Source: a phage. From it: DNA of 44,317 nucleotides. Below are positions 23,158 to 30,695 of this stretch, piece after piece. The position numbers were made by a program, and so were the translations under genes. Under the pieces are notes generated by a model, which worked only from the letters and a program-made list of their open reading frames with translations, made no database searches and was not told the origin of the DNA. Position 1 is the first letter of the stretch; every line of letters begins with the position of its first letter. The stretch is from the sequence record PX907402.1. One strand, given 5' to 3'.

Positions 23158-23328
23158 ATGCGTATTAAAGCCAGCGAAGTAAAAGTCGGAATGCAAGTAT
23201 GGTCCAAGCTACTGGGGGAATATTTCACAGTTGCCGAGATTCGCAACAACGGCGAAGAGATCGCCCTGTCAGACGGCATCTTCTCCATGATCGGCAGCGC
23301 TGACGCCGTAGTGAGGATAAAGCAATGA
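23158..23328 (+). CDS. Small hypothetical protein (56 aa)
   Basis: ORF ending in ATGA overlap with DNA polymerase start. Confidence 0.3.
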   Translation: MRIKASEVKVGMQVWSKLLGEYFTVAEIRNNGEEIALSDGIFSMIGSADAVVRIKQ

Positions 23329-25616
23329 AAGACTTCGAACGTCTGTTTCTCGACACCGAGACATTTAGCGGGGTGGACCTGAAGAAAGTAGGGGCGTACG
23401 CCTACGCAGAGCACCCAACCACCGAGATTATGATTTGCACCTACGCCATCGACGAAGGCCGCGTGCAGACATGGGATGCCACTGAATCCCCAACAATGCC
23501 GCGTGAACTGCGCAAGGCGCTCCGTCAGGTATCCCGCAAGAAAGCAAAAATCGTGATGGCTAACGGCCTCCTGTTTGACCGCTTGGTCATCCGCGAGAAG
23601 TGGGGTATTGACCTGCCGGTAGACCAGATCGAAGATACCATGATTATGGCCTTTCGCCACGCGCTGCCCGGTAGCCTCGATATGCAGTGCCAGGTGCTGG
23701 GCGTTGACGCAGAGCACGCGAAAGATAAGGCAGGCAAGGCGCTGATTAAACGATTCTGTAAGCCGACCCCTAAGACTTACAAAATCCGCCGCTACACTCG
23801 CGAGACTCACCCAGAAGAGTGGGCCAAATTTCTGCGCTATGCCGCGCTGGATATTATCGCAATGCGTGAAGTCTACTGGCGCATACCGGACTGGGGCAAT
23901 ACTCCGAAGGAAGATGAAATCCTGCTTATCGACCAGTTGATTAACGACCGCGGCTTCTATGTGGACGTTGACCTGGCGAACGCCGCGATCAAAGCGGTGC
24001 AGGCGCATAAGGAAGAATTGAAGGAAGAAGCCTGGGAGCGATTTGGTGGTAAACTTACAGGCAATGACTTCCTGCCAATCCTGCGTGATATCGCCCCGGC
24101 GTTCACAATCCACAACGCGCAGAAATCCACACTTAACGACCTGCTTGAAGACCCGGACTTCCCCGACGAAGGCAAAGCGCTTATCGAAATGCGCCTCGGA
24201 GCGTCATCAACGGCATCGACTAAGTACAATCCGCTCGTTAACGGCCTATCCGCCGATGGTCGCCGCCGTGGGTGTCTTCAGTATGGCGGCGCAAAGCGCA
24301 CGCTACGCTGGGCTGGTAAAGGCTTCCAGCCTCAAAACCTGGCACGCGGCGAGTATAGCGACGACCACGAAGGGAAGATTAAGCGCCGCGAAGGCGAGAG
24401 CGACGTCTCGTTTTGGGTGCGGTCGCACATGCTCACCAACGGCATCAAATCCCTGTTACGCGGGACAGCGCACTGGGCGTATGACATATCGAAGCTAACC
24501 GCCTCGACCGTTCGCGGGTGCATTATTCCGGCGAAGGGTAAGAAGTTTGTCGTAGCGGACTACTCCAACGTGGAAGGGCGCGGCCTTGCCTGGATCGCTG
24601 GCGAGAAAACCGCGCTAATGGTGTTTAAGGCCGGGCGCGATATCTATTGCGAGACTGCCGGTAAGATGTTCGGCCTTGACCCGGATTACATCAAAGCCAA
24701 CCGCAAAGACTTGCGACAGATCGGTAAGGCGTGTGAGTTGGGACTGGGCTATGGCGGCGGCGTCGCGGCGTTCTTGCAGTTCGCTAAAAACCTGGGACTC
24801 GACCTTTACACTATGGCGGACGTGATGAAAGGCACGTTCCCGGATCACATTTGGGCGGCGGCGAAGCGCGGTTATGAGTACGCCCGCATTAACGAAGCGA
24901 AACGCCCACCGAAGCCGGGCAAGAAGGACGAGCGCCCGACTTACATACTGCCGAAAAACGTATGGCTTACTTGTGACGCGATCAAACGTATGTGGCGTGA
25001 GGCGCACCCGAAGACGGTAGCCTTTTGGGCCGAGCTTGAGGACGCGGTGTTGTGTGCAATCCGCAATCCGGGCAAAGCATACTGGGCTGGTGCGAACGTT
25101 CGCCCGGACGGTAGAAAAGCGCTCAAGATTGTCCGTACGAAGGCGAAGCACGACCCAACCTTTGACGAGGAGCGCGACGACCCGAACGCCGCGGGGTGGT
25201 GGTTGAAAATTGAGTTGCCGTCGGGGCGCATCATGAGCTACCCCGGCATAGCGCTGTCTGTCACTACCGAGATTGACGAAGACACCGGCAAGAAGCGCAC
25301 CAGCACACGCATTAAATATCAGGGCGAGAATCAGACGACGCGCCAGTGGGGATTCCAGTATACCTACGGCGGCAAACTGACGGAGAACATCGTACAGGCG
25401 TTGTGCCGCGATATTCTCGCATGGTCCATGCCTGGCGTTGAAGCTGCGGGGTATAAAATCGTCCTGTCGGTGCATGATGAATTGATCACAGAAGTGCCGG
25501 ACACCGACGACTACACGACAGAGGAGCTTTGCGCGCTGATGTGCGACCTGCCTATTTGGGCGAAAGGCTTCCCACTTGCCGCCGAAGGCGATTGTATGTA
25601 TCGCTACCGCAAGTAG
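23325..25616 (+). CDS. DNA polymerase, family A (T7-like, with 3'-5' exonuclease domain)
   Basis: LFLDTETFSG exo motif; RQIGKACELGLGYGGG (motif B-like) and VLSVHDELITEV (motif C). Confidence 0.9.
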   Translation: MKDFERLFLDTETFSGVDLKKVGAYAYAEHPTTEIMICTYAIDEGRVQTWDATESPTMPRELRKALRQVSRKKAKIVMANGLLFDRLVIREKWGIDLPVDQIEDTMIMAFRHALPGSLDMQCQVLGVDAEHAKDKAGKALIKRFCKPTPKTYKIRRYTRETHPEEWAKFLRYAALDIIAMREVYWRIPDWGNTPKEDEILLIDQLINDRGFYVDVDLANAAIKAVQAHKEELKEEAWERFGGKLTGNDFLPILRDIAPAFTIHNAQKSTLNDLLEDPDFPDEGKALIEMRLGASSTASTKYNPLVNGLSADGRRRGCLQYGGAKRTLRWAGKGFQPQNLARGEYSDDHEGKIKRREGESDVSFWVRSHMLTNGIKSLLRGTAHWAYDISKLTASTVRGCIIPAKGKKFVVADYSNVEGRGLAWIAGEKTALMVFKAGRDIYCETAGKMFGLDPDYIKANRKDLRQIGKACELGLGYGGGVAAFLQFAKNLGLDLYTMADVMKGTFPDHIWAAAKRGYEYARINEAKRPPKPGKKDERPTYILPKNVWLTCDAIKRMWREAHPKTVAFWAELEDAVLCAIRNPGKAYWAGANVRPDGRKALKIVRTKAKHDPTFDEERDDPNAAGWWLKIELPSGRIMSYPGIALSVTTEIDEDTGKKRTSTRIKYQGENQTTRQWGFQYTYGGKLTENIVQALCRDILAWSMPGVEAAGYKIVLSVHDELITEVPDTDDYTTEELCALMCDLPIWAKGFPLAAEGDCMYRYRK

Positions 25617-25682
25617 CGGAAATGTTGCTTTTAGCGGAAACGTCAGGCAATATTGTCTGGCGTTTTCTTTTTCGGGGGGTAT

Positions 25683-26285
25683 ATGAAACATTGTGGGCGT
25701 TGTAATACGGATAAAGATGAGTCCGCTTTCAACAAGGGGCAGTCGTGGTGCGCCAAATGCATGGCGGCGTATAAGAAAGAGAGACGAGATAAGGAAAGAG
25801 GAGCGCCGCCGCGCGAAGTATGGCGAGAGTATACCGGGGAGATCGTAACGTGCCGTCAGTGCGGGGAACGCAAGCCGCTTACGCCGGAAAACTTCCGGCC
25901 CGGAAACCGGGCAAGCCAGTCACACATTCGTAAAGAATGCCGGTCGTGCGCTAATAAGTCCCGCCGTGAGTACAACCACCGGACACCAGAGATCCGAGCT
26001 TACTATAAGCTATTTCAGTACCGTAAGGCGGACGAAAGGAAGGGGCTAAACACCGACCTAACCACCGAGGACATGCTACGCCTTTCCTCTCAGCCATGCG
26101 CATACTGCGGATTCACTGGCGACAATGGCGCGGACCGACTCGACAACGCAGTAGGCCATACGAAAGATAACTGCGTGCCGTGCTGCGTAGAGTGCAACAT
26201 AGCCCGCGGGGACCGGTTTACCCCGGACGAAATGAAGAAGTTTATCGGACCTGCCATCGCTGCCGTAAGGAAAAGCCGACAATGA
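25683..26285 (+). CDS. HNH endonuclease with N-terminal zinc-ribbon repeats
   Basis: C-terminal CAYCGF...DRLDNAVGHTKDNCVPCCVECNIARGD HNH motif; N-terminal repeated CxxC...CxxC modules. Confidence 0.7.
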   Translation: MKHCGRCNTDKDESAFNKGQSWCAKCMAAYKKERRDKERGAPPREVWREYTGEIVTCRQCGERKPLTPENFRPGNRASQSHIRKECRSCANKSRREYNHRTPEIRAYYKLFQYRKADERKGLNTDLTTEDMLRLSSQPCAYCGFTGDNGADRLDNAVGHTKDNCVPCCVECNIARGDRFTPDEMKKFIGPAIAAVRKSRQ

Positions 26286-26560
26286 CACCAGAAGGCAAGA
26301 TTCAAAGCCACCTGATGAGACGGGTGAAAGATGTTGGCGGATTCTGCCGAAAACTGGCATGGGAGGGGCGCGCAGGTGCGCCAGACCTGATTATTATCAT
26401 CAACGGCAAAATAGTGTTCGTCGAAGTGAAGCGCCCCGGAGGAAAACCGAAGCCGCACCAGGTACGTGAACATGAGCGAATGGCCCGCCGCGGTGCTGAC
26501 GTTCGCGTTATCGACAACATATCCGACTGCGATTTATTGGTTGCTGAATTGGTCGCATAG
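26282..26560 (+). CDS. VRR-NUC domain nuclease
   Basis: GAPDLIIIINGKIVFVEVKRPGGKPKPHQ matches VRR-NUC core (PD...EVK). Confidence 0.65.
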   Translation: MTPEGKIQSHLMRRVKDVGGFCRKLAWEGRAGAPDLIIIINGKIVFVEVKRPGGKPKPHQVREHERMARRGADVRVIDNISDCDLLVAELVA

Positions 26561-26600
26561 CGGTATAGTGTGCCGGTTAGCCATATCGAGGATTTTAGAG

Positions 26601-26774
26601 ATGATTGAAGAAAAACGATGTAGTAATTGCGGCTGTGTAAAGCCGCTATCCCAGTTCCACAAATACACCGGTAAGACTGCGCGCAGTCCAGACGGGTATC
26701 GGGCAGAGTGCAAATCGTGCCGCAATAAGAAAGAGCGCGAACGGCAGCGCCGCTACCGTGCAGAACAAAAATAA
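26601..26774 (+). CDS. Small zinc-ribbon protein, paralogous to HNH N-terminal module
   Basis: CSNCGCVKPLSQF...CKSCRNKKERERQRR mirrors CRQCGERKPLTPENF...CRSCANKSRREY in 25683..26285. Confidence 0.4.
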   Translation: MIEEKRCSNCGCVKPLSQFHKYTGKTARSPDGYRAECKSCRNKKERERQRRYRAEQK

Positions 26775-26781
26775 TTAATAC

Positions 26782-26804
26782 GGCGGGCTTGTCCCGCCAT
26801 TTTT
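26782..26804 (+). terminator. Intrinsic terminator
   Basis: ggcggg-cttgt-cccgcc followed by TTTTT; contains a TTGTCCCGCC iteron-like sequence. Confidence 0.5.
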
Positions 26805-26811
26805 GGGAGAC

Positions 26812-27036
26812 ATGACGATGAAAGAACATTACCGACTCACCAAGCTGGGCGAATGTAAACCGGGCGATCGCGTATGGTTTATCGCGGGCATGAATGATCC
26901 GCTGCCGTTGACGGTGTGCTGGCAAAAATTTAAGAGCTTCCGGGCTACCGGTGTGCACATCGGACACGCCACCAACTACGACGCTACAAAAAGGAACTGG
27001 AACAGTGAAACCGAAGTCTGGAAAAAGGCGGAATAA
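26812..27036 (+). CDS. Hypothetical protein
   Basis: 74 aa ORF after terminator. Confidence 0.4.
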   Translation: MTMKEHYRLTKLGECKPGDRVWFIAGMNDPLPLTVCWQKFKSFRATGVHIGHATNYDATKRNWNSETEVWKKAE

Positions 27037-27040
27037 AGAA

Positions 27041-28465
27041 ATGGCACGATTCCGACGCCGCGAATATCAGAAGTTGATAACCGCGTTCATCCTCAAGCAT
27101 AAGCGATGTAATATATGGGCGACAATGGGATCCGGTAAAACCGGCGCGACAATGTGGGCGCTGAATAAAATGTTCCAGACTGGCATCCTGTCGAACCAGG
27201 AGGACCGCGTACTGGTGCTGGCCCCGCTGCGCGTTGCATCCGGCACCTGGCCCCCGGAACAGGAGAAATGGCGGTTCTCATCCCTGCTGGTTGTAGACGG
27301 CACCGGGCCGGAGAAGGACCGTATTGCAGCGCTTGAGAGCGACGCTAACGTGGTTTGTGTTAACTACGATGTGGTTGAGTGGCTGGTCGACTATTACGGC
27401 GATGCGTGGCCCTTTACGGTCGTTGTTGCCGATGAATCCACTAAGCTGAAAGGCTACCGAAGCAAGCAGGGAAGTAAGCGCGCACGCGCACTGGCAGCGA
27501 TTGCACATAAACACGTCAAGCGCTGGATTAACCTGACCGGCACACCAGCGCCAAACGGCTTGAAAGACCTGTGGGGGCAGACGTGGTTTGTCGACGGTGG
27601 CGAACGACTCGGCAGTAGTTATAAGGCATTCACCGATCGCTGGTTCATTAGCAAGCCTGTTAAGCCTGGCAGCTTCACGATGCAGCACGCCCCGCTAAAG
27701 AACTCCGAGAAAGAGATACAACAACGTCTGTCTGATGTGTCCCTAACCGTTGACGCGGCTGAATACTTCGGATGCGACAAGCCAATCTATACGCCGGTTG
27801 TTGTGGACCTGCCGAAGAAAGCCCGCAAGATTTATGACCAGTTTGAAAGCGAGCTATTTGCCGAACTGGAAAGCGGAACAGTGGAAGCGGCGAACGCGGC
27901 ATCGAAGACAATTAAGTGCCTTCAGCTTGCATCCGGGGCCGTGTATAAGGTGGACGAAGACGGCGAACGGACCGACGAGTGGGTGAAAATTCACGACGCG
28001 AAGCTGGACGCGCTGGAAAGTATCGTGGAGGAGTTGAACGGCGCGCCGTTGCTCGTCGCGTATCAGTATAAACATGACCTGGCTCGTCTTAAGAAGAAAT
28101 TTCCGCACGGCGTTGCGTTGGGTAAAGGTAAGCAGGGCAATAAGGATATGGAAGCGTGGAACAGGGGCGAGATCCCCATCATGTTTGCGCACCCGGCATC
28201 GGCAGGCCACGGCCTTAACTTGCAGGACGGCGGTCATCACCTGGCAATCTTCTCCGATACATGGAACTTTGAGCATTTTTCGCAGATCGTTGAACGTATC
28301 GGGCCGGTTCGCCAGATGCAGGCCGGACACCCTCGACCGGTATTCGTCTACATTATCCAGGCGCGCGGCACACTGGATGAACTGGTCGCCGAACGTCGCG
28401 ACAGCAAGCGGGATATCCAGGACGACTTGATGGAATACATGAAAGCTAAAAAGGCGCGCAAATGA
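27041..28465 (+). CDS. SNF2/DEAD-like superfamily 2 helicase
   Basis: Motif I ATMGSGKT, motif II VVADESTK, motif III NLTGTP. Confidence 0.8.
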   Translation: MARFRRREYQKLITAFILKHKRCNIWATMGSGKTGATMWALNKMFQTGILSNQEDRVLVLAPLRVASGTWPPEQEKWRFSSLLVVDGTGPEKDRIAALESDANVVCVNYDVVEWLVDYYGDAWPFTVVVADESTKLKGYRSKQGSKRARALAAIAHKHVKRWINLTGTPAPNGLKDLWGQTWFVDGGERLGSSYKAFTDRWFISKPVKPGSFTMQHAPLKNSEKEIQQRLSDVSLTVDAAEYFGCDKPIYTPVVVDLPKKARKIYDQFESELFAELESGTVEAANAASKTIKCLQLASGAVYKVDEDGERTDEWVKIHDAKLDALESIVEELNGAPLLVAYQYKHDLARLKKKFPHGVALGKGKQGNKDMEAWNRGEIPIMFAHPASAGHGLNLQDGGHHLAIFSDTWNFEHFSQIVERIGPVRQMQAGHPRPVFVYIIQARGTLDELVAERRDSKRDIQDDLMEYMKAKKARK

Positions 28466-29157
28466 TTATCTGGTCATTATTTGACGGCAGCGGCTTGATG
28501 ATTGAGCGTGCTGCCGAGATGGGGCATAAGTGTTATTGCTTCAACTACTCCGAAGCCGATCACGGATCATACCTTGACTACCGGATTTATGGTCGCGGAA
28601 TACGCTATCGCAATGAGTTTATCGATCTGGACTTTGTAGATCGCGCGATGAATGGCGATTTCGGTACGCCAGATATCATCTACGCATTCCCGCCGTGTAC
28701 TGATCTGGCGGTGAGCGGTGCGCCAGCTTTCCCGCGCAAACGCGCCCGCGACCCGGCCTTCCAGCTTAAGGCGGTGCGCACCGCGAAGATCGCAGCTTAC
28801 CTGGGTGACTTCTTCGAAGTGCCATATATGATTGAGAATCCGCGCAGTGTGCTTTCCACCCAGTGGCGCAAGCCAGACCACTCGTTCGACCCGTGGGAGT
28901 ATGGGGGATATCTGCCGGAGGATGACGTACACCCGCTCTTCCCGGAATACATCAACGCCCGCGATTCATATCCGAAGCTGACTTGCTTATGGACCGGCAA
29001 CGGCTTCCGTATGCCAGAGAAGAAACCTGTTTTCGTTGAAAAAGGGTACTCGAAGCAGTATAGTCGCCTCGGAGGCAAATCAGCCCGCACAAAATTAATC
29101 CGGTCGCTCACCCCGCGCGGCTTCGCGATAGCGGTCAATGAGGAAAATTTAAAATGA
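28462..29157 (+). CDS. DNA cytosine-C5 methyltransferase-like protein (short, 231 aa)
   Basis: Motif I-like LFDGSG, motif IV-like FPPCTDLAVSGA (Pro-Cys), motif VI-like ENPRSVL. Confidence 0.55.
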   Translation: MIIWSLFDGSGLMIERAAEMGHKCYCFNYSEADHGSYLDYRIYGRGIRYRNEFIDLDFVDRAMNGDFGTPDIIYAFPPCTDLAVSGAPAFPRKRARDPAFQLKAVRTAKIAAYLGDFFEVPYMIENPRSVLSTQWRKPDHSFDPWEYGGYLPEDDVHPLFPEYINARDSYPKLTCLWTGNGFRMPEKKPVFVEKGYSKQYSRLGGKSARTKLIRSLTPRGFAIAVNEENLK

Positions 29158-29477
29158 ATACTACATTCGAAGCCATTGATTTTTCGGTTGCAATGACTAA
29201 CCAGTTATTCTCCTACGACAGCAAAACCGGCGTCATTCGTCTGAAGTCCACCGGCTGCAAAATTGGCAACCTTAACACTGCCGATGGCGGCACGCGCATC
29301 GAATGCAACGGCAAGACGCTGTCTGGCGCACGCGTGGCGTGGATTATTGAGACGGGCCATACAATCCCTCCAGGCTTCGCCGTTGTGTGCCGCCAGCGCA
29401 CTCCAGGGCACTACGGCAACCGCATGAGCAACCTGTATCTGGTAGACGTTGCGCGCGACCCGAACTTTTATGCGTAA
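29154..29477 (+). CDS. Hypothetical protein, possible degenerate HNH/AP2-like DNA-binding domain
   Basis: 107 aa; weak resemblance only. Confidence 0.3.
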   Translation: MNTTFEAIDFSVAMTNQLFSYDSKTGVIRLKSTGCKIGNLNTADGGTRIECNGKTLSGARVAWIIETGHTIPPGFAVVCRQRTPGHYGNRMSNLYLVDVARDPNFYA

Positions 29478-29511
29478 ATTGGTTGCATAATCATATTGGT
29501 TGCATTATATT
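29478..29511 (+). promoter_or_regulatory. Candidate promoter with two ATTGGTTGCAT direct repeats
   Basis: Motif copies 29478-29488 and 29495-29505; TTGCAT (29483-29488), 17 bp spacer, TATATT (29506-29511). Confidence 0.5.
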
Positions 29512-29559
29512 GAGGGTGTCCGGTTTGGACGCCCTTTTTTAATACCTGGAGACACCACG

Positions 29560-30018
29560 ATGAAAATTTTACAAGAAGAGAAAAATTACTGGGCCGCGCA
29601 ATGCCTCGAAGCCCGCGAACAGGCCGAACGTGCGAACGCGGTGGCGGACACCAACCAGGCGCTATATGAAGGCGAGAAGAAAGTGCTCCAGGAGCTAGAG
29701 GAGCGCTTCGAACTGCTTTTCGAATTGATGGGGATTATGCAGCGCACCGGATACACAACCAGCGTTGCACTAAACCGCATCACCGCCGAAGGTCTGCGCG
29801 AGCATTGCAAACGGGCCGAGGAATACGTGCGCCCGAAGGGAAGCCAGTCTTCGATCCCGCGGAAAGGACTGGTGCATATAGCGTGGCGTGCAAACGGAAG
29901 CTACTATTCCGATAGCCGACCGCTCAGTAGGGAGGAGATGTCCCGAGTCCAACGTGTGCTGTCTAGCGGCAAGAAAACCGCCCTGTATGCGATAGATCCA
30001 GACTATGACGGAGAATGA
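29560..30018 (+). CDS. Hypothetical protein
   Basis: 152 aa ORF downstream of promoter. Confidence 0.5.
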   Translation: MKILQEEKNYWAAQCLEAREQAERANAVADTNQALYEGEKKVLQELEERFELLFELMGIMQRTGYTTSVALNRITAEGLREHCKRAEEYVRPKGSQSSIPRKGLVHIAWRANGSYYSDSRPLSREEMSRVQRVLSSGKKTALYAIDPDYDGE

Positions 30019-30490
30019 GCAAAAAGATAGCTGGCGCACGCCGCCAGCTTTATTTAAACCGCTTCGTCGGAAGTACCGATTCCGTTACGATATGGCGGCA
30101 AGCGATGCAAACCACCTGCTCCCGCGTTACTTCACGGCGGAACACAGCGCGCTTGATGTGGACTGGGCAGAGTTGAAAGGGTGGAAGTGGTGCAATCCGC
30201 CGTATTCCGATCCGCTGCCGTGGGTAGAGTGCGCAGCGCACGGACGCCGGACTGTCATGCTACTGAATCAGGACACGTCGACGAAGTGGGCGAAGCTGGC
30301 CCGGAAGACTGCAAACCTGATAATTCTTCTGGACTGGCGGATTAGATTCATTCACGCCGTCACCGGCGAAGTCGGGCCGAGCAATAACAAGTGCCAGCAA
30401 TTGATAATCTTTGACGAAGCGCCACCCATCGGCAGCGCACAAATTGAAATAATGAGCGAAGGAGAACTCCTTGAATATCTTAATCGTTGA
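30005..30490 (+). CDS. DNA N6-adenine methyltransferase (phage Dam-like)
   Basis: WRTPPALF...DMAASDANHLLPRYFT...WCNPPYS (NPPY catalytic motif). Confidence 0.7.
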   Translation: MTENEQKDSWRTPPALFKPLRRKYRFRYDMAASDANHLLPRYFTAEHSALDVDWAELKGWKWCNPPYSDPLPWVECAAHGRRTVMLLNQDTSTKWAKLARKTANLIILLDWRIRFIHAVTGEVGPSNNKCQQLIIFDEAPPIGSAQIEIMSEGELLEYLNR

Positions 30491-30695
30491 CCGCAGTATG
30501 CGCGTCGTGGACGAAATTGTTAAACGCTACCAAATTAACCCGAGGGAGAACAAAGTACGGCGGGTCAGCCGCCCGGAGCAATTGCTCGGCCTGGACCTTA
30601 CCGGCTGGCTTGTAATGACGGCCCGCTATCATCTTGTGTGTGACACGTTTTCCGCCCGTATTGTTCGTACGAATCTTATCGAGGAGTTGAAATGA
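30471..30695 (+). CDS. Hypothetical protein (start uncertain: TTG 30471 or ATG 30498)
   Basis: Small ORF with gaaggag RBS before TTG. Confidence 0.3.
   Translation: MNILIVDRSMRVVDEIVKRYQINPRENKVRRVSRPEQLLGLDLTGWLVMTARYHLVCDTFSARIVRTNLIEELK

What the first reader, a model, noticed from the sequence alone, without database searches (positions are those of the whole stretch)
25683..30490. Dense nuclease/helicase/methylase block: HNH, VRR-NUC, Zn-ribbon, SNF2-like helicase, short C5-MTase-like enzyme, Dam-like MTase
Six consecutive plus-strand genes encode DNA-cutting, DNA-remodelling and DNA-modifying functions. The C5-MTase-like protein (28462..29157) has motif I, Pro-Cys motif IV (with Thr in place of the usual Gln) and an ENV-like motif VI, but at 231 aa appears to lack a target-recognition domain. 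It may need a partner or act on a non-canonical substrate. Together with the Dam-like enzyme this suggests a genome-modification strategy for restriction evasion.
Basis: partly seen in the sequence, partly recalled or inferred. Interest (0 to 1): 0.45.

Follow-up and report, generated by a model that had tools for sequence, protein, structure and literature searches.

The report
Dhillonvirus replication module with orphan methyltransferases
This is the ordinary, already sequenced and annotated DNA replication, repair and methylation gene block of a common E. coli phage (genus Dhillonvirus), and its unusually short cytosine methyltransferase belongs to a phage family in which one member has been reported to methylate DNA without any other phage protein.

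Summary
The window is a near-complete Dhillonvirus (HK578/SO-1/SECphi18-like coliphage) genome. Region 25683-30490 is 92-95% identical to more than 140 deposited phage genomes, where the same genes are annotated. In order: a patchy HNH/EndoVII-like zinc-finger nuclease, VRR-NUC, a 57-aa zinc ribbon, a 74-aa unknown, an SNF2 helicase, the 231-aa C5-MTase-like protein, a 107-aa HNH-like remnant, a 152-aa unknown and a PF05869 Dam-like MTase.

The partner and odd-substrate ideas are therefore not supported. Restriction evasion remains plausible but untested. The recognition sequence and the DNA-recognition mode of this short family are still unmapped.

Verdict: already known, low interest.

The parts
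25683..26285 (+). 200-aa zinc-finger HNH/endonuclease-VII-like nuclease: two N-terminal CxxC ribbons plus a C-terminal CxYCG...DRLDN...CxxCN motif. It is an accessory, patchy gene.
   Evidence: phrog_1035 'endonuclease VII' E 4e-42. No Pfam hit. Weak PDB matches to an HNH protein and to R.PacI. Family invariants lack a His. Found at >=90% identity in only about 28 phage records. Absent from Dhillonvirus KarlBarth.
26282..26560 (+). 92-aa VRR-NUC (PD-(D/E)xK) structure-specific nuclease or resolvase-like protein. Its start overlaps the HNH stop.
   Evidence: PF08774 scores 25.6 bits against a cut-off of 23.8. phrog_93 E 1e-30 and phrog_5702 'Holliday junction resolvase'.
26601..26774 (+). 57-aa zinc-ribbon protein, a paralogue of the internal ribbon of the HNH protein.
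   Evidence: phrog_5558 E 6.5e-17. 41% identical to residues ~55-100 of the HNH protein. No Pfam support for the 'Lar' name.
26812..27036 (+). 74-aa protein of unknown function, conserved in Dhillonviruses.
   Evidence: phrog_9291 E 2e-47. Annotated as hypothetical in SECphi18, SM_S22 and KarlBarth.
27041..28465 (+). 474-aa SNF2-family ATPase/helicase.
   Evidence: PF00176 scores 41.9 bits against a cut-off of 24.9. phrog_62 E 2.5e-156.
28462..29157 (+). 231-aa short Dcm-like DNA C5-cytosine methyltransferase (phrog_757 family). ATGA overlaps link it to both neighbouring genes.
29154..29477 (+). 107-aa HNH-like or homing-endonuclease-like remnant. No catalytic motif is recognisable.
   Evidence: Partial match to phrog_99 'HNH endonuclease', E 5e-15. 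'Putative homing endonuclease' in the BASEL annotation. No Pfam or PDB support.
29560..30018 (+). 152-aa protein of unknown function. Databases label it 'DNA ligase', probably wrongly.
   Evidence: phrog_10530 E 1e-90. No Pfam hit, and no NCBIfam hit beyond noise. 'Hypothetical protein' in the BASEL and Henu5_1 annotations.
30005..30490 (+). 161-aa phage Dam-family N6-adenine DNA methyltransferase with an N64-P-P-Y67 motif.
   Evidence: PF05869 E 1e-35, 123 bits. TIGR01712 scores 85.7 bits, below its 97.05 cut-off. 30% identical to the T1-like KarlJaspers Dam. 37% identical to Stx-phage Dam homologues.
30471..30695 (+). Ksap1, 74 aa, the experimentally defined trigger of Klebsiella Avs2. It lies just outside the finding and in the same transcription direction.
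   Evidence: Position and size match the SECphi18 gene between the methyltransferase and the phosphatase, as described in PMC11564622.

Best explanation
The interval is the conserved DNA replication, recombination and modification module of a Dhillonvirus siphophage. It lies downstream of the phage DNA polymerase I gene.

VRR-NUC and the SNF2 ATPase are inferred to process branched replication or recombination intermediates. The HNH/EndoVII-like gene is an optional, probably mobile, nuclease gene.

The two methyltransferases are orphan enzymes, meaning they have no cognate restriction enzyme. The 161-aa protein is a phage Dam-family N6-adenine MTase.

The 231-aa protein is a stand-alone, SAM-dependent DNA C5-cytosine MTase of the short phage 'Dcm' family. 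Cys79 in PPCT is the inferred nucleophile, Glu125 in ENP the inferred acid that protonates N3, and FDGSG the SAM loop. A small, family-invariant insert (about 140-180, including Y170, K172, T174 and W177) is inferred to replace a large target-recognition domain. This is as in DNMT3A/B, its closest structural matches.

Both enzymes are inferred to methylate replicating phage DNA. The same activity is a liability, because methylation of retron msDNA by the homologous K42 Dcm triggers retron Ec86/Eco1.

Shown here: homology, motifs, fold and distribution. Shown in the literature for a 54%-identical homologue: 5mC formation in vivo without other phage proteins, and retron triggering. Inferred: activity of this particular protein, its recognition site (CCWGG was assumed by the authors and not mapped), and its biological role.
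For: **Genome identity and annotation**
- The block is 92-95% identical to Sodalis phage SO-1, SECphi18 and 143 other records.
- Annotated records give the same gene order.

**Other genes of the block**
- Family assignments: PF08774, PF00176 and PF05869 all above their gathering scores; PHROG matches.

**The 231-aa protein**
- phrog_757 E 2e-82.
- More than 2880 homologues in the 90% clusters.
- 1993 clusters at 50% identity with E<=1e-3; most of the 150 best listed are 200-260 aa and match end to end.
- In 73 diverse members, C79, E125, P127, P144, Y170, W177 and P185 are invariant. The 140-180 insert (mean top-residue frequency 0.59) is as conserved as the catalytic motif regions (0.60-0.64).
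- AF2 model: pLDDT 90.2, pTM 0.89.
- Foldseek against PDB: the top 50 hits are all DNMT3A/3B/3C (E from 2e-6).
- BLASTP to KarlJaspers bas06_0055: 54% identity over 232 residues, E 2e-86. C79, E125 and K172 align with the mutated C82, E128 and K175.
- Wang et al. report that escapers of retron Ec86 map to dcm. Dcm expressed alone is toxic only with the retron and raises msDNA 5mC by LC-MS. The quadruple mutant is inactive. 34 of 35 Ec86-sensitive Drexlerviridae, Siphoviridae and Demerecviridae phages encode Dcm.

**Orphan status and sites**
- KarlBarth keeps both MTases but lacks the HNH gene.
- GATC (164) and CCWGG (145) are not depleted in the genome. Either site would therefore offer many targets.
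Against: - There is no Pfam or NCBIfam hit for the 231-aa protein even at E<=10. A profile search against PDB gives only M.HaeIII at E 0.4.
- K176 of K42 Dcm is Leu173 here.
- The motif II position is Asn28 rather than the Asp seen in 93% of the wider family, although K42 Dcm also has Asn there.
- No activity data exist for a Dhillonvirus enzyme.
- The CCWGG specificity in the preprint is assumed, not mapped. Their host MG1655 is dcm+ by my own knowledge of the strain, yet it tolerated the retron. This leaves open that the phage enzyme targets a different cytosine or context.
- Dhillonviruses are not notably restriction-resistant, so a protective role is unproven.
- The roles of VRR-NUC and SNF2 are inferred from family membership only.
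Confidence: 0.8

Rival explanations
1. The short C5-MTase-like protein is an incomplete catalytic core. It would need a separate specificity partner, for example the translationally coupled SNF2 helicase or the 107-aa HNH-like protein. Alternatively it would act on a non-canonical substrate such as ssDNA, nucleotides or RNA.
For: - It has no separate TRD lobe and is only 231 aa.
- ATGA overlaps link it to both neighbouring genes.
- A helicase gene lies within about 2 kb of the MTase in every phage group inspected.
- BFVD contains proteins of more than 1000 aa that combine this fold with a helicase domain.
Against: - The 54%-identical K42 Dcm works alone in E. coli on the double-stranded stem of msDNA.
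- The neighbouring helicases belong to four unrelated families: SNF2, DUF3987, PIF1 and UvsW.
- The downstream ORFs are unrelated.
- The family is a stable, end-to-end unit of about 230 aa across 1993 sequence clusters.
- DNA MTases score higher than DNMT2.
Confidence: 0.08
2. The enzyme transfers a group other than methyl to C5, for example carboxymethyl from Cx-SAM. That would make hypermodified cytosine.
Against: - LC-MS found 5-methylcytosine for the K42 homologue.
- None of the genes annotated in the block or its flanks suggests a Cx-SAM synthase (CmoA-like) or another hypermodification enzyme, though no specific search was run.
- Dhillonviruses do not show the RM resistance typical of hypermodified phages.
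Confidence: 0.03
3. The block is a restriction-modification or anti-restriction island. This is what RefSeq names such as 'restriction endonuclease' and 'Lar-like restriction alleviation protein' suggest. The nucleases would be paired with the methyltransferases.
For: - Database product names say so.
- Nucleases and MTases lie side by side.
Against: - The HNH gene is absent from KarlBarth while both MTases remain, and it is present in only about 28 records.
- VRR-NUC matches resolvase-type profiles.
- Pfam does not support the 'Lar' name for the Zn ribbon.
- The block sits between the DNA polymerase and PNK genes in a replication module.
- No PADLOC or defence-family search was run, so this rests on context only.
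Confidence: 0.05

Closest known systems
Phage KarlJaspers/K42 'Dcm' (bas06_0055, 236 aa), the trigger of retron Ec86/Eco1 (Wang et al., bioRxiv 10.1101/2023.08.16.553469)
   Same: - 54% identity over the full length, and the same ~230-aa architecture.
- Same PPC, ENP and YxK residues, with C79, E125 and K172 aligning to C82, E128 and K175.
- Same PHROG family.
- Same orphan status inside a replication module.
   Different: - Different phage lineage (Dhillonvirus versus Drexlerviridae).
- Leu173 in place of K176.
- Directly overlaps an SNF2 helicase gene instead of lying near a DUF3987 helicase.
- Activity and retron triggering have not been tested for this protein.
DNMT3A/DNMT3B catalytic domains (closest solved structures)
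   Different: - Only 14-16% identity.
- About 55 residues shorter.
- PPCT/ENP instead of the PCN/ENV that I recall for DNMT3 (from memory, not checked here).
- No evidence here for the DNMT3-type dimer or tetramer that compensates for the small TRD.
- Not a member of that eukaryotic family.
E. coli Dcm / M.EcoRII and other canonical bacterial C5-MTases (PF00145, e.g. M.HhaI, M.HaeIII)
   Different: - No PF00145 hit.
- No large TRD between motifs VIII and IX.
- 231 aa, compared with 324-328 for M.HaeIII and M.HhaI.
- Shared CCWGG specificity with Dcm is assumed in the literature, not shown.
Phage Dam family PF05869 (T1-like and Stx-phage Dam enzymes)
   Same: The 161-aa protein matches PF05869 at 123 bits and carries NPPY. 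It is 30-37% identical to T1-like and Stx-phage Dam homologues.
   Different: - Shorter than the T1-like enzyme (161 aa against 233 aa).
- Below the TIGR01712 equivalog cut-off.
- GATC specificity not tested.

Membership tests
DNA C5-cytosine methyltransferase superfamily (PF00145-type) | Motif I F-x-G-x-G (SAM loop) | tested here: met
   F7-D-G9-S-G11. F7, G9 and G11 are invariant in 28 close homologues. G11 is 81% conserved in 73 diverse members.
DNA C5-cytosine methyltransferase superfamily (PF00145-type) | Motif IV Pro-Cys with the catalytic cysteine | tested here: met
   P77-P78-C79-T80. C79 is invariant in 73 diverse members.
DNA C5-cytosine methyltransferase superfamily (PF00145-type) | Motif VI E-N-V with the catalytic glutamate | tested here: met
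   E125-N126-P127. E125 and P127 are invariant and N126 is 97% conserved.
DNA C5-cytosine methyltransferase superfamily (PF00145-type) | Sequence match to the Pfam model above its gathering score | tested here: not met
   No Pfam hit even at E<=10. Only 3 of the 120 listed homologues carry a precomputed PF00145 hit.
DNA C5-cytosine methyltransferase superfamily (PF00145-type) | C5-MTase fold: best structural neighbours are C5-MTases | tested here: met
DNA C5-cytosine methyltransferase superfamily (PF00145-type) | Separate target-recognition domain between motifs VIII and IX | tested here: not met
DNA C5-cytosine methyltransferase superfamily (PF00145-type) | SAM-dependent formation of 5-methylcytosine in DNA | not testable with these tools
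   Reported by LC-MS for the 54%-identical K42 Dcm. Not tested for this protein.
Short phage Dcm family (phrog_757; K42/KarlJaspers Dcm) | Full-length homology to the characterised member | tested here: met
   54% identity, E 2e-86, residues 2-231 against 5-236. phrog_757 E 2e-82.
Short phage Dcm family (phrog_757; K42/KarlJaspers Dcm) | Residues whose combined mutation kills K42 Dcm (C82, E128, K175, K176) | tested here: inconclusive
   C79, E125 and K172 are conserved. K176 corresponds to Leu173 here.
Short phage Dcm family (phrog_757; K42/KarlJaspers Dcm) | Triggers retron Ec86/Eco1 by methylating msDNA | not testable with these tools
   Literature only, for K42.
Phage Dam family (PF05869 / TIGR01712) | Pfam model above its gathering score | tested here: met
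   123.3 bits against 28.1.
Phage Dam family (PF05869 / TIGR01712) | NCBIfam equivalog cut-off | tested here: not met
   85.7 bits against a cut-off of 97.05.
Phage Dam family (PF05869 / TIGR01712) | (D/N)PPY catalytic motif | tested here: met
   N64-P65-P66-Y67, read from the translation. It aligns with the NPPY of the KarlJaspers Dam.
Phage Dam family (PF05869 / TIGR01712) | GATC-specific N6-adenine methylation | not testable with these tools
   No activity data. GATC occurs 164 times in the genome.
HNH (beta-beta-alpha-Me) nucleases | Profile match to an HNH family | tested here: inconclusive
   PHROG endonuclease VII/HNH profiles match, E 4e-42 to 5e-5. No Pfam HNH hit. PDB matches to an HNH protein and to PacI are only at E 0.25-3.3.
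HNH (beta-beta-alpha-Me) nucleases | Conserved general-base histidine | tested here: not met
   The family invariants are C139, C142, G143, G149, D151, R152, D154, N163, C168, C171 and N172. None is a histidine.
VRR-NUC (PF08774) | Pfam model above its gathering score | tested here: met
   25.6 bits against 23.8.
SNF2 family ATPases (PF00176) | SNF2-related domain above its gathering score | tested here: met
   41.9 bits against 24.9. Helicase_C is below its cut-off, 17.3 against 23.5.
Restriction-modification system | Nuclease and methyltransferase inherited together as a cognate pair | tested here: not met
   KarlBarth has both MTases but no HNH gene. The HNH gene is in about 28 records at >=90% identity. 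The MTase is in about 150 at that level and in 1512 overall.

The most novel reading that the evidence does not exclude
The short phage 'Dcm' family may recognise DNA differently from canonical C5-MTases. It may use only its invariant 40-residue insert, possibly as a DNMT3-like dimer. It may also have a specificity different from host Dcm, for example the outer cytosine of CCWGG or a shorter motif. That would explain how retron Eco1 can tell phage methylation from host Dcm methylation in dcm+ cells. It would also make this the smallest natural sequence-specific DNA C5-MTase architecture. My evidence does not exclude this, because the site has never been mapped and no structure exists.
Probability: 0.3. 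Interest if true: 0.45.

Novelty: already known. Interest (0 to 1): 0.2.

Why it matters
As a discovery it matters little. The gene block is present and annotated in well over a hundred deposited Dhillonvirus genomes, and the short methyltransferase family already has a characterised member.

Three practical points follow.
- Database names in this block ('restriction endonuclease', 'DNA ligase', 'Lar-like', 'kilA anti-repressor', 'chromatin remodeling complex ATPase') are unreliable.
- The phage carries three genes of classes tied to host immune sensors. Its Dcm-like gene is homologous to the retron Eco1 trigger. Phage Dam enzymes are reported to trigger other retrons. Ksap1 triggers KpAvs2. 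This is relevant when choosing or engineering such phages.
- The recognition site and the minimal DNA-recognition mode of a 231-aa C5-MTase remain a small open biochemical question.

Tried and rejected
1. **Conserved helicase-MTase pair (a DNMT5- or DISARM-like coupling).** A helicase gene lies near the short MTase in all six phage groups inspected. However, the helicases are unrelated by BLASTP and belong to different families: SNF2, DUF3987, PIF1 and UvsW. The linkage therefore reflects the replication-module setting, not a partner.
2. **The 107-aa downstream ORF as a specificity subunit.** It has no similarity to the ORF downstream of K42 dcm and no PDB or Pfam signal.
3. **N-terminal extensions in longer family members (P0240, P0255, P0265 and others) as fused partners.** None has a Pfam domain. 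They may be mis-called starts.
4. **Sequence-only links to solved structures.** phmmer found only an irrelevant kinase. The profile found only M.HaeIII at E 0.4.
5. **Hia5-type non-specific adenine MTases as relatives of the Dam-like protein.** The paper places Hia5 with Dam/DpnM/T4Dam-type enzymes and mentions neither Pfam nor phage Dam enzymes such as those of HP1 or T1. I dropped this lead.
6. **Site avoidance as a clue to function.** GATC and CCWGG are neither depleted nor enriched beyond their Markov expectation.
7. **Structured RNAs.** No Rfam family matches in the window.
8. **Literature on 5mC in Dhillonvirus.** No paper was found.


Full report
**What the window is.** Megablast of 25683-30490 against deposited phage genomes finds 164 records. 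Of these, 143 cover at least 80% of the query, nearly all at 90-95% identity. They include Sodalis phage SO-1, Escherichia phages SECphi18, Gluttony and JLBYU60, and other members of the genus Dhillonvirus. Escherichia phage Henu5_1 (44,212 bp) encodes a 231-aa protein identical to the one here. The 44.3-kb window is therefore essentially a whole Dhillonvirus genome. The finding lies in its plus-strand early/middle region, directly after the DNA polymerase I gene at 23325-25616.

**Check of the observation.** ORF listing and three independently annotated relatives give nine genes in the interval.
- 25683-26285: HNH/EndoVII-like.
- 26282-26560: VRR-NUC.
- 26601-26774: zinc ribbon.
- 26812-27036: unknown, phrog_9291.
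- 27041-28465: SNF2 helicase.
- 28462-29157: the 231-aa protein.
- 29154-29477: 107-aa HNH-like.
- 29560-30018: 152-aa unknown.
- 30005-30490: Dam-like.

Pfam supports three of these above their gathering scores: VRR-NUC (25.6 against 23.8 bits), SNF2 (41.9 against 24.9) and Dam PF05869 (123 against 28). PHROG profiles support all nine.

The 'HNH' is atypical. It has no Pfam hit and only weak PDB matches, to an HNH protein and to R.PacI. In an alignment with five distant homologues, the invariant residues are C139, C142, G143, G149, D151, R152, D154, N163, C168, C171 and N172. None of them is a histidine.

That gene is also optional. At 90% identity or more it occurs in about 28 phage records, against about 150 for the MTase. 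It is absent from Dhillonvirus KarlBarth. In Raoultella phage Ro1, a homologue sits between a DNA methyltransferase gene and the primase/helicase gene. This is the pattern expected of a mobile, homing-type nuclease gene.

Terminator-like hairpins on the plus strand lie at 25636-25667, 26782-26798 and 29512-29536. They would split the block into three units, but they are consensus matches only. The 231-aa gene overlaps both neighbours by ATGA.

**The 231-aa protein.** Standard libraries do not see the protein. Pfam and NCBIfam return nothing, even at E<=10. A profile built from 28 homologues finds only M.HaeIII in the PDB, at E 0.4 across motifs I-IV.

It is nonetheless a member of a large and uniform family.
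- phrog_757 matches at E 2e-82.
- There are more than 2880 homologues in the 90% clusters.
- There are 1993 clusters at 50% identity with E<=1e-3. Most of the 150 best listed are 200-260 aa and match end to end.
- 1512 phage records hold it, from Dhillonvirus, Drexlerviridae and Vequintavirinae and from phages of Klebsiella, Salmonella, Vibrio and Pectobacterium.

What stands in its place is a compact insert. In 73 diverse members (32-55% identity), residues 140-180 are as conserved (mean top-residue frequency 0.59) as the motif IV and motif VI-VIII regions (0.60 and 0.64). P144, Y170, W177 and P185 are invariant, and D168, K172 and T174 nearly so.

**Link to experiment.** A literature search led to Wang et al. 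(bioRxiv 10.1101/2023.08.16.553469, cited elsewhere as 'DNA methylation activates retron Ec86 filaments for antiphage defense'). They isolated escapers of retron Ec86 in phage K42, a strain of KarlJaspers (Bas06). All escapers disrupted a 711-bp 'dcm' gene. Expressing Dcm alone was toxic only when the retron was present, and it raised C5-methylcytosine in purified msDNA by LC-MS. A C82A/E128A/K175A/K176A mutant was inactive. [quoted passage not shown]

I fetched KarlJaspers. Its 711-bp gene, bas06_0055, encodes a 236-aa protein that is 54% identical to the window protein over the full length (E 2e-86). C79, E125 and K172 align with C82, E128 and K175, and Leu173 stands in place of K176. The BASEL curators already annotate the orthologue in Dhillonvirus KarlBarth as a 'Dcm-like C5 cytosine methyltransferase', and the 161-aa gene as a 'Dam-like N6-adenine methyltransferase'.

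**Is there a partner?** A helicase gene lies near the short MTase in every phage group I inspected. However, the helicases are unrelated to one another: SNF2 here, DUF3987 in Drexlerviridae and Pectobacterium phage Amona, PIF1 in HMD-6 and UvsW-like in Vibrio phage SUMAE. The ORF downstream of K42 dcm is unrelated to the 107-aa ORF here. Taken with the in vivo activity of K42 Dcm when expressed alone, this argues against an obligatory partner.

**What remains open.** The preprint assumes the enzyme has E. coli Dcm's CCWGG specificity. It shows only that mutating the CCTGG in the msDNA stem abolishes defence. The modified position was not mapped. Their host MG1655 is dcm+ by my own knowledge of the strain, and it tolerated the retron. 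The site specificity of this family is therefore unproven.

GATC (164 sites) and CCWGG (145 sites) are present at about the expected frequency in this genome, so either enzyme would have many targets. By inference from general knowledge, the modification pattern must be compatible with McrBC and Mrr, because these phages are routinely isolated on K-12 (hosts listed). That would fit a Dcm-like context.

A role in restriction evasion is plausible but unsupported. In the BASEL survey, Dhillonvirus phages lack the type I/II RM resistance shown by Queuovirinae, and no simple link between MTase genes and restriction resistance was found in the related Drexlerviridae.

**The Dam-like protein.** It matches PF05869 strongly but falls below the TIGR01712 equivalog cut-off. 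It carries N64-P-P-Y67. It is 30% identical to the T1-like KarlJaspers Dam and about 37% identical to Stx-phage Dam homologues. Its specificity was not testable here.

**Verdict.** Its partner and odd-substrate speculation is not supported, and its restriction-evasion claim is untested. The block is an ordinary, widely sequenced Dhillonvirus replication, recombination and methylation module, and the short methyltransferase belongs to an already characterised phage Dcm family. It is already known and of low interest. The one residual question is the recognition site and DNA-recognition mode of this minimal C5-MTase.

Noticed in passing
window 30471-30695 (+): A 74-aa ORF overlapping the Dam stop codon. 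By position and size it corresponds to SECphi18 Ksap1, the small protein that directly binds and activates the Klebsiella Avs2 defence protein (PMC11564622).
   Followed up: partly
window 29560-30018 (+): This 152-aa ORF is named 'DNA ligase' by phrog_10530 and in some RefSeq and GenBank records. It has no Pfam or NCBIfam support and is far too small for a ligase. The name is probably a propagated misannotation, and BASEL annotators call it hypothetical.
   Followed up: partly
window 25683-26285 (+); L008 29534-29725; L013 250-816: The HNH/EndoVII-like gene is patchy among Dhillonviruses. KarlBarth has an unrelated 63-aa ORF in its place. In Raoultella phage Ro1 a homologue is wedged between a DNA methyltransferase gene and the primase/helicase gene. 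This suggests a mobile homing-type gene. Its family has an invariant D-R-x-D motif and no conserved histidine.
   Followed up: partly
window 26601-26774 (+) versus 25683-26285: The 57-aa zinc-ribbon protein is 41% identical to the internal ribbon (residues ~55-100) of the HNH protein, so it is a stand-alone paralogue of that domain. Pfam does not back its PHROG name, 'Lar-like restriction alleviation protein'.
   Followed up: partly
window 29154-29477 (+): This 107-aa ORF is translationally coupled to the MTase gene. It matches only part of an HNH-endonuclease PHROG profile and looks like a degenerate homing-endonuclease remnant with no recognisable catalytic residues.
   Followed up: partly
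window 25636-25667, 26782-26798, 29512-29536 (+): Three terminator-like hairpins, each followed by a T run, lie between gene groups. They would divide the block into three transcription units (HNH to Zn ribbon; the 74-aa ORF to the 107-aa ORF; the 152-aa ORF onward). These are consensus matches only.
   Followed up: no
whole window: CTAG is strongly under-represented: 22 observed, about 170 expected from base composition and 53 from a Markov model. GGCC is at about 0.7 of expectation. GAATTC occurs 4 times against about 8-9 expected. GATC and CCWGG are not depleted.
   Followed up: no
GenBank MG065648 and related records (hits): Dozens of records labelled 'Campylobacter phage' with host C. jejuni carry this block at about 92% identity to coliphage Dhillonviruses. 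They also match T1-like and rV5-like coliphage genes. The host labels look wrong.
   Followed up: no
BFVD A0A6J5SE15_1 and A0A6J5NPY6_2; P0240, P0255, P0265: Some uncultured-phage proteins of 400-1400 aa contain the short-MTase fold, and one carries a helicase/UvrB annotation. The extensions of the 400-450-aa members have no Pfam domain.
   Followed up: partly
window 28462-29157, residue 28: At the end of strand 2, the usual position of the motif II acidic residue that binds the SAM ribose, the enterobacterial-phage clade has Asn. This includes the active K42 Dcm. In the wider family, 93% of members have Asp there.
   Followed up: no
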